Shown one piece after another: positions 58,901 to 59,106 of a stretch of 64,000 nucleotides of DNA (the first letter of the stretch is position 1; the number at the start of each line of letters is the position of its first letter). Source of the stretch: Eledone cirrhosa (lineage: Eukaryota); assembly GCA_964016885.1 (NCBI GenBank), contig OZ024752.1, positions 43,028,001 through 43,092,000 on the forward strand, given 5' to 3'. Both the position numbers and the translations under genes were made by a program. The notes below the pieces were generated by a model. It did no database searches. It was not told the DNA's origin and saw nothing but the letters and a program-made list of their open reading frames with translations.

Positions 58901-59106
58901 TAGGTCCCGGGTTGAGTCGGGGATAACCACAGTAAGTAAGGTACTCAATACATGGCAGAGTAAAATTTTTTTATTTTATAGAAGGAACTTCTACAGGACT
59001 AGTACTGTTTCATTCAGATGAAATCTTCAGGAAGCTTCCTGAAGATTTCATCTGAATGAAACAGTACTAGTCCTGTAGAAGATCCTTCTATAAAATAAAA
59101 TAAAAA
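58901..59106 (-). mobile_element. Family A fold-back element with intact hammerheads on both strands
   Basis: Palindrome centred on GAAGCTTC (59031-59038). The + arm 59035-59081 reads CTTC-CTGAAGA-TTTCATCTGAAT-GAAACAG-TACTAGTC-CTGTA^GAAG. Confidence 0.88.

What the first reader, a model, noticed from the sequence alone, without database searches (positions are those of the whole stretch)
58901..59106. Family A hammerhead: structure-level conservation with a non-canonical U-U at the base of stem II
Seen across seven copies: N7 varies (CUGAUGA/CUGAAGA), the stem II loop is hypervariable (TAAA, TCCC, ATCT, CCTC, TTTT), stem III ACAG/CTGT and the GUA site are essentially fixed, and stem I covaries (CTTC/GAAG at 59035 versus GATTC/GAATC at 44727, though the latter lies at an inversion junction). 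The position that is normally a G10.1-C11.1 pair is U-U in every copy. Inference: a conserved variant ribozyme core under selection, with the (A)CTAG(T) palindrome in loop III possibly supporting dimerisation.
Basis: partly seen in the sequence, partly recalled or inferred. Interest (0 to 1): 0.72.

Follow-up and report, generated by a model that had tools for sequence, protein, structure and literature searches.

The report
Jumping-gene hammerhead with U-U pair
This is a predicted self-cutting RNA carried by about 25,000 pieces of a Penelope-type jumping gene; its U-U pair is conserved but already known from other animals, and the ends of the inserted copies suggest that the RNA starts right at the ribozyme and is usually copied uncut.

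Summary
The motif is real: a type I hammerhead fold at 59033-59083 with U10.1-U11.1. One 32-nt pattern finds 24,622 matches in this genome, 23,892 of them U-U. It belongs to a Penelope-like retrotransposon with the protein motifs of the Hydra clade. Three lineages keep the core (30-34 of 34 positions) while upstream flanks drift to 44-84% and proteins to 41-44%, and helix I covaries, so selection on the source elements is likely. U-U is not new: it is in Perreault 2011, in an axolotl hammerhead that cleaves, and in 14 of 25 Hydra families of Craig 2021. The window's copies are not independent: many are mirror arms, and the named copy sits in a long hairpin and is probably inert. Less expected: helix I starts 29-30 nt behind a TATA box in all three lineages, and insertion ends pile up there, not at the cut site, as if copied from uncut RNA to its 5' end. 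Cleavage, dimer and start site are untested. The scan met Hydra elements and two-armed insertions before, on other DNA of this genome.

The parts
59033..59083 (+). Type I hammerhead fold, + arm; predicted cut after A59077; base 59082 departs from its lineage and breaks one helix I pair
   Evidence: sequence; lineage copies
59046..59057 (+). Helix II: U10.1 (59046) facing U11.1 (59057), three pairs UUC/GAA, loop AUCU
59061..59076 (+). Helix III: 4 pairs and an 8-nt loop holding the palindrome ACUAGU; predicted dimer interface
   Evidence: prediction only
59084..59106 (+). Short 3' end of the + arm, running into (TA)n
   Evidence: short arms end at +53 to +66 in most sampled pairs
58986..59036 (-). 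Mirror copy of the hammerhead on the - arm (C3 at 59030)
58899..58985 (-). Conserved 3' tail of the element on the long arm, ending in (TA)n; in two loci it runs on into the RT reading frame
59033..59036 (.). Head-to-head junction; both arms share the palindrome AGCT, whose A is the first base of helix I and the predicted transcription start
56871..56935 (+). Second insertion of the same lineage (loop ATCT)
44598..44785 (.). Two-armed insertion of lineage S1 (loop TAAA); long arm on -
43052..43230 (.). Two-armed older insertion (loop TCCC); long arm on +
62160..62302 (.). Two-armed older insertion (loop TTTT)
19885..20050 (.). Two-armed older insertion (loops TCCC and CCTC); neither arm keeps C3-U4
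55470..55524 (-). Single decayed arm (loop ATAC)
35715..35875 (.). Decayed two-armed insertion

Best explanation
The motif is a type I hammerhead fold with a U10.1-U11.1 mismatch at the end of a Penelope-like retrotransposon with Hydra-clade protein motifs, and it likely acts as a slow, dimer- or protein-assisted self-cutter at the very 5' end of the element's RNA, while the named genomic copy is likely an inert insertion. Steps: (shown) the fold lies between a TATA box and the RT-endonuclease frame; (inferred) polymerase II starts at the first base of helix I; (inferred) cutting after GUA would remove a capped 45-nt piece and, in tandem read-through RNA, would release unit-length RNA; (inferred) the weak helix II keeps cutting slow, so most RNA that is reverse-transcribed is uncut; (inferred) the RT starts about 60 or 140 nt downstream, runs off the RNA's 5' end, and the two cDNA ends are joined head to head in a (TA)n target, which gives the short palindromes seen here.
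For: Link to RT + C-terminal GIY-YIG frame; for the named copy's own lineage L223. Hydra motifs DKT, RWR, CxCx5C, CxxC, CxH (against PMC8557442 section 11). Constraint: core without N7 and loop II 30-34 of 34 identical between lineages, spacer 47-58%, far upstream 44-57%, proteins 41-44%. Helix I changes on both sides in 2 pairs between lineages. Only 13 copies lose both U, 2 to G-C. TATA to helix I is 29-30 nt in all three lineages. 31 of 55 short two-armed copies reach -7 to -5, 1 reaches -13; in a second sample 12 of 60 stop at -6/-7 against 7 in the next 33 nt; 3 of 97 long arms start within 2 nt of the cut site. Precedent: U-U axolotl hammerhead cleaves 22% as monomer, better as dimer (PMC7229834); the Poseidon hammerhead needs its protein and uncut RNA is the main substrate (PMC11167929).
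Against: No cleavage and no RNA data. The hammerhead fold is not the minimum-energy fold of a monomer (probability 0.0004-0.03) and scores no better than shuffles. No Rfam hammerhead match among 88 matches up to E 10. Helices II and III show no compensatory change inside the family. Covariation rests on three lineages, so on about two events. The palindrome control is weak (105 of 840, 161 of 1680). The start site is inferred from spacing and junctions only; samples come from the first 60 Mb of one contig.
Confidence: 0.7

Rival explanations
1. The fold is kept for protein binding or RNA packaging, not for cutting; catalysis is vestigial.
For: Insertions seldom start at the cut site (3 of 97). 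Hammerhead mutants do not affect insertion in vitro, and no reads were found ending at the cut site of Poseidon (PMC11167929). Monomer misfolds are predicted, including UUUC pairing with the core GAAA.
Against: All catalytic positions are kept across lineages whose proteins are 41-44% identical, N7 varies as in active hammerheads (A, T, G, C seen), and U-U hammerheads are known to cleave.
Confidence: 0.15
2. The pile-up of ends at helix I is caused by the helix itself (cDNA snapping back on its own helix I) or by a splice acceptor, not by the RNA's 5' end.
For: A cDNA that has copied both helix I strands can fold back; lineages S1 and S2 have CAG at -7 to -5 behind a pyrimidine-rich or branch-like stretch; in Drosophila Penelope an intron ends at helix I (PMC4209133).
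Against: Snap-back predicts a join to +45, seen in 1 of 65 contexts. Splicing predicts loss of the AG and one shared upstream exon; the AG is kept and what follows varies. Lineage S4 has GG there but the same TATA spacing. A C follows in 4 of 7 copies stopping at -6, as copying a cap would give; this is weak.
Confidence: 0.25
3. The conservation is only common descent of young repeats, with no selection.
For: Window copies are mirror arms or near-identical family members; 2,230 exact matches for the named lineage.
Against: Between lineages the flanks and proteins are deeply diverged while the core is not; U-U recurs in cnidarian, echinoderm and crustacean Hydra families.
Confidence: 0.04
4. 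The short copies are a non-autonomous retrozyme copied from an RNA circle.
For: Most copies are short and non-coding; other notes of the scan report retrozyme arrays in this genome (e1-8663903, unchecked).
Against: No tandem units among the 100 tail-selected loci as printed; long copies run into the Hydra frame on either side; ends stop at helix I rather than running round a circle.
Confidence: 0.06

Closest known systems
Hammerheads of Hydra-clade Penelope-like elements (Craig et al. 2021, PMC8557442; passages, section 11 and supplement parts 1-2 of 59 read)
   Same: Type I fold near the element end; U after the CUGANGA box and U before GAA in 14 of 25 families (26 rows, counted by eye); ACAG/CTGT helix III in 4 families; (TA)n targets; RT + C-terminal GIY-YIG.
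   Different: A different family from Hydra-1_Obim, whose hammerhead has a 7-bp helix II. Loop III is 8 nt here, 1-3 nt in the table. The parts read call these motifs canonical and do not remark on U-U or on a start site at helix I.
Axolotl HHR_Amex2 (Cervera and de la Pena 2020, PMC7229834; passages and section 15 read)
   Same: Type I, U-U mismatch at the base of helix II, tens of thousands of copies; cleaves 22% as monomer and better as dimer.
   Different: Sits in 350-bp tandem retrozymes that form circles, helix III of 2 bp; here it is part of an autonomous element with a 4-bp helix III.
U10.1-U11.1 natural variant (Perreault et al. 2011, PMC3088659; passages and section 3 part 2 of 7 read)
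   Same: The same mismatch, said to support more cleavage than any other mispair at that position.
   Different: Reported there as a rare variant; here it is fixed in a large family.
Poseidon_Ac of Anolis (Frangieh et al. 2024, PMC11167929; parts 1-2 of 4 read)
   Same: Hammerhead upstream of two internal RT start sites; both DNA strands cut and extended; uncut RNA is the main substrate.
   Different: Penelope/Poseidon clade; its frame starts inside helix II, here about 175 nt behind the core.
Minimal hammerheads of metazoan PLEs (Cervera and de la Pena 2014, PMC4209133; parts 1-2 of 4 read)
   Same: PLE context, palindromic helix III region, proposed dimer.
   Different: Those have G10.1-C11.1, an extra base before 10.1, a long helix II and almost no helix III.

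Membership tests
Hammerhead ribozyme, type I | Core CUGANGA, GAAA and NUH in type I order | tested here: met
Hammerhead ribozyme, type I | Three helices around the core | tested here: met
   87.9% and 94.7% of cells paired in helices I and III; the three pairs above U-U paired in 33, 32 and 31 of 33
Hammerhead ribozyme, type I | Compensatory changes in the helices | tested here: inconclusive
   Two helix I pairs change on both sides between lineages; pairs-with-change measure 80 of 500 shuffles; none in helices II and III; R-scape not available
Hammerhead ribozyme, type I | Watson-Crick pair 10.1-11.1 (usual, not required: PMC3088659, PMC7229834) | tested here: not met
   U-U in 23,892 of 24,622
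Hammerhead ribozyme, type I | Match to an Rfam hammerhead model | tested here: not met
   none among 88 matches up to E 10 in 58950-59110, where the palindrome dominates; only 150 of 405 rows were shown
Hammerhead ribozyme, type I | Self-cleavage after NUH | not testable with these tools
   needs in vitro transcription
Hydra clade of Penelope-like elements | Single frame, RT then C-terminal GIY-YIG, element near or under 3 kb | tested here: met
   about 710 codons, broken in the copies seen; unit about 2.8-3.0 kb by my estimate from L032 and L223
Hydra clade of Penelope-like elements | RWK and DKT motifs | tested here: met
   RWR and DKT in L031; DKT and RWR in L223
Hydra clade of Penelope-like elements | CxCx5C linker, CxxC and CxH beside the conserved E and N | tested here: met
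   L032
Hydra clade of Penelope-like elements | Insertion in (TA)n; hammerhead near the end | tested here: met
Hydra clade of Penelope-like elements | Placement inside the clade on an RT tree | not tested
   no named Hydra proteins among the session's sequences; the 120 listed hits carry no informative name
Minimal PLE hammerhead (Cervera 2014) | G10.1-C11.1, extra base before 10.1, long helix II, vestigial helix III | tested here: not met
Non-LTR retrozyme | Tandem non-coding units each with a hammerhead | tested here: not met

The most novel reading that the evidence does not exclude
In this Penelope-like family the hammerhead is the first thing transcribed: helix I begins at the cap, 29-30 nt behind the TATA box. 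The ribozyme is then a slow self-decapping switch, slowed by the U-U helix II, and most of the genome's copies are 'strong-stop'-like cDNAs run off the 5' end of uncut RNA from two internal start sites. That would explain the short inverted insertions of these elements and give a direct test of what their hammerheads are for.
Probability: 0.45. Interest if true: 0.62.

Novelty: new member of a known kind. Interest (0 to 1): 0.36.

Why it matters
The U-U pair itself teaches little that is new, though a family that fixes it across deeply diverged lineages is a good natural test set. What hammerheads do in Penelope-like elements is stated as unclear in PMC8557442. Thousands of insertions here record where the template RNA ended, and they point to the predicted start site and away from the cut site. 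If the start site is confirmed, the role of the ribozyme (decapping or unit-length release rather than making the template's end) becomes directly testable.

Tried and rejected
Rfam: no hammerhead match; hits were microRNA models on palindromes and microsatellites. The repeat finder was swamped by microsatellites. Lunse et al. 2017 is not held; I saw it only through a review (PMC6765202, passages and section 11 part 2), so it may already describe U-U variants. Pfam gave no RT match for L031 and a sub-threshold GIY-YIG match for L032. The homologue search gave 1,598 relatives, 38-51% identical among the 120 listed, without useful names. One search was a poorly chosen pattern and was not used. 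Rejected: that GATTC/GAATC is an inversion artefact; that a G-C lineage exists; covariation in helix II (73 double changes at 10.4/11.4, about 28 U-A by eye, which two transitions give anyway; 0 at 10.3/11.3). Literature searches for a start site at the hammerhead or for this family found none in the parts I read; this is not proof of absence. bioRxiv 10.64898/2026.07.22.740005: part 1 of 5 read, not used for a claim.

Full report
1. Observation. The stretch 59033-59083 reads as a type I hammerhead: helix I, CUGAAGA, U, UUC-AUCU-GAA, U, GAAA, CAG-8 nt-CUG, UA, helix I. A BLAST and a fuzzy scan find 13 arms in the window, by position 8 insertions. U-U is in 12 of 12 arms that hold both positions, GUA in 13 of 13, ACAG/CTGT in 9 of 13. 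The named copy is one arm of a palindrome centred on 59034|59035; 58966-59104 folds into one hairpin of -102.9 kcal/mol, z -25. A read-through RNA of either strand would be predicted to form that hairpin and not the ribozyme.

2. Genome-wide. A 32-nt pattern with N at 10.1, 11.1, N7 and loop II has 24,622 matches, the reversed control 0. With U at both places it has 23,892. Only 13 matches lack U at both places, 2 of them G-C. The named lineage (N7 = A, loop ATCT) has 2,230 exact matches. These counts include both arms of two-armed insertions.

3. What carries it. [quoted passage not shown] In L223 a decayed frame of the same kind lies upstream of a hammerhead of the named lineage. The motifs DKT, RWR, CxCx5C, CxxC and CxH and the (TA)n targets fit the Hydra clade as defined in PMC8557442 section 11. 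I built no tree.

4. Selection. Promoter-bearing, non-inverted copies (48 contexts) fall into three lineages: S1 with helix I AGATTC/GAATCT, S2 (the named one) AGCTTC/GAAGCT, S4 GGCTTTC/GAAGCC with one bulged base. Between lineages, for six chosen copies, the core without N7 and loop II is identical at 30-34 of 34 positions, the spacer behind the TATA box at 47-58%, -100 to -46 at 60-84%, -200 to -101 at 44-57% and the 3' flank at 61-86%. RT segments of S1 and S2 are 41-44% identical in most aligned stretches (one 53%), the endonuclease 44%. On 36 of the 48 contexts (33 distinct) the structure has 85.7% of cells paired against 37-53% for slid controls; 3 pairs change on both sides, reached by 80 of 500 shuffles, and S4 is out of register in that alignment. 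Helix II does not covary inside the family. Among 69 of 100 copies chosen by the tail and not by the core, loop II takes 15 forms while 11.1 is U in 69 and loop III has one common variant. The evidence for constraint is therefore conservation against diverged flanks more than covariation, which rests on about two events.

5. U-U is known. Perreault 2011 reports helix II starting with U10.1-U11.1 and notes that this mispair cleaves best among mispairs. Axolotl HHR_Amex2, about 60,000 copies, has it and cleaves 22% in an hour as monomer, more as dimer. File S2 of Craig 2021 shows U on both sides in 14 of 25 Hydra families, from Hydra, a sea cucumber and a copepod (counted by eye).

6. Folding and dimer. 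The hammerhead is not the best monomer fold (probability 0.028, 0.0014, 0.0004 for S1, S2, S4). UUUC can slip onto the core GAAA at about equal energy, which would hide G12. Two copies of S1 or S2 are predicted to pair through helix III and the CUAG palindrome (-21.2 and -30.0 against -11.2 and -19.6 kcal/mol for two monomers); S4 is not predicted to. But 105 of 840 and 161 of 1680 permuted loops do as well, and the 4-bp helix III can close within one molecule. Dimerisation is plausible by precedent, not shown.

7. Where insertions end. The TATA box lies 30, 29 and 30 nt before the first base of helix I in S1, S2 and S4 although the spacer differs; a start about 30 nt behind TATA is textbook knowledge, recalled. 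Coordinates count from C3 = 0; helix I starts at -6 (-7 in S4), the cut product at +39. Of 100 tail-selected loci I dropped 1 duplicate; 2 were unresolved; 60 were flagged as inverted, of which I set aside 4 (misaligned or far upstream) and 1 that turns at -91. Of the other 55, 31 reach -7 to -5, 1 reaches -13 and 23 stop at -4 or later; microhomology blurs four of the -7 calls by up to 3 nt. Only 3 of 97 long arms start at +37 to +41. In a second sample (60 of the first 100 listed of 10,841 S1 matches that reach -6), 12 stop at -6/-7, 7 in the next 33 nt (one a deletion by eye) and 41 go further. A C follows in 4 of the 7 that stop at -6, as copying a cap would give; this is weak. The two arms share loop II in 38 of 40 pairs, so they come from one source. 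The named copy fits exactly: both arms meet in the AGCT that starts helix I.

8. Mechanism. Shown: anatomy, linkage to the frame, conservation, position of ends. Inferred: start at helix I; slow cutting, helped by a partner RNA or the element's protein as for Poseidon_Ac; reverse transcription from two internal sites to the 5' end of uncut RNA; joining of the two ends. The likely use of cutting is to decap the RNA or free unit-length RNA from tandem transcripts, as proposed in PMC4209133; that is not tested. Rivals are a non-catalytic role and a structure- or splice-caused pile-up of ends.

9. Verdict. A new family member of a known kind with a known core variant. The finding as posed deserves a low score; the start-site reading lifts it a little. 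Earlier notes of the scan had already tied hammerheads in this genome to Hydra elements and two-armed insertions; none of the 24 notes shown for this genome states the start-site point for a Hydra element. Lunse 2017 and 57 of 59 supplement parts of PMC8557442 (seen only through searches) could bear on novelty.

Noticed in passing
window 59190-59530 (cores at 59282 - and 59427 +), 62443 -, 62754 -: A second hammerhead-like family with a longer helix II and a palindromic TATATA or TGCGCA helix III region, also as a head-to-head palindrome; one arm has U-U and the other G-U at the base of helix II by eye.
   Followed up: no
window 20154-20190 +: A classical minimal PLE hammerhead: extra A before 10.1, GGAC/GTCC helix II, GAAACGTT.
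   Followed up: no
window 58926-58955 -; 13,591 exact matches in G000: A 30-nt stretch of the tail is shared by S1, S2 and S4, a likely RT signal; its GTATTGAG word also shows in the Hydra consensus printed before Hydra-1_Obim and in another repeat at about window 42766.
   Followed up: partly
L134-L136, L138, L141, L142, L144-L146, L155, L157-L159: One old S4 copy with a GUU site is carried inside another repeat, with the same flanks at 12 of 30 loci.
   Followed up: no
window 35388-35576 +: Decayed piece of a Hydra-type endonuclease frame, E 7e-5.
   Followed up: no
G000:C9:35496851-35497154; G000:C1:118475146-118477641: Hammerhead copies at a regular 136-nt spacing, and alternating inverted copies at about 1,060-nt period.
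   Followed up: no
tally: Strand counts are skewed (3,951 against 6,890), which suggests a large one-directional array holding this motif somewhere in the genome.
   Followed up: no
window 56743-56781 +: Two 11-nt starts of the hammerhead repeated inside (TA)n before the full copy at 56871, as from slippage or restarts.
   Followed up: no
L043: The long arm starts exactly at the cut site and the inverted arm at helix I, sharing the helix I bases; it may record a cleaved template.
   Followed up: partly
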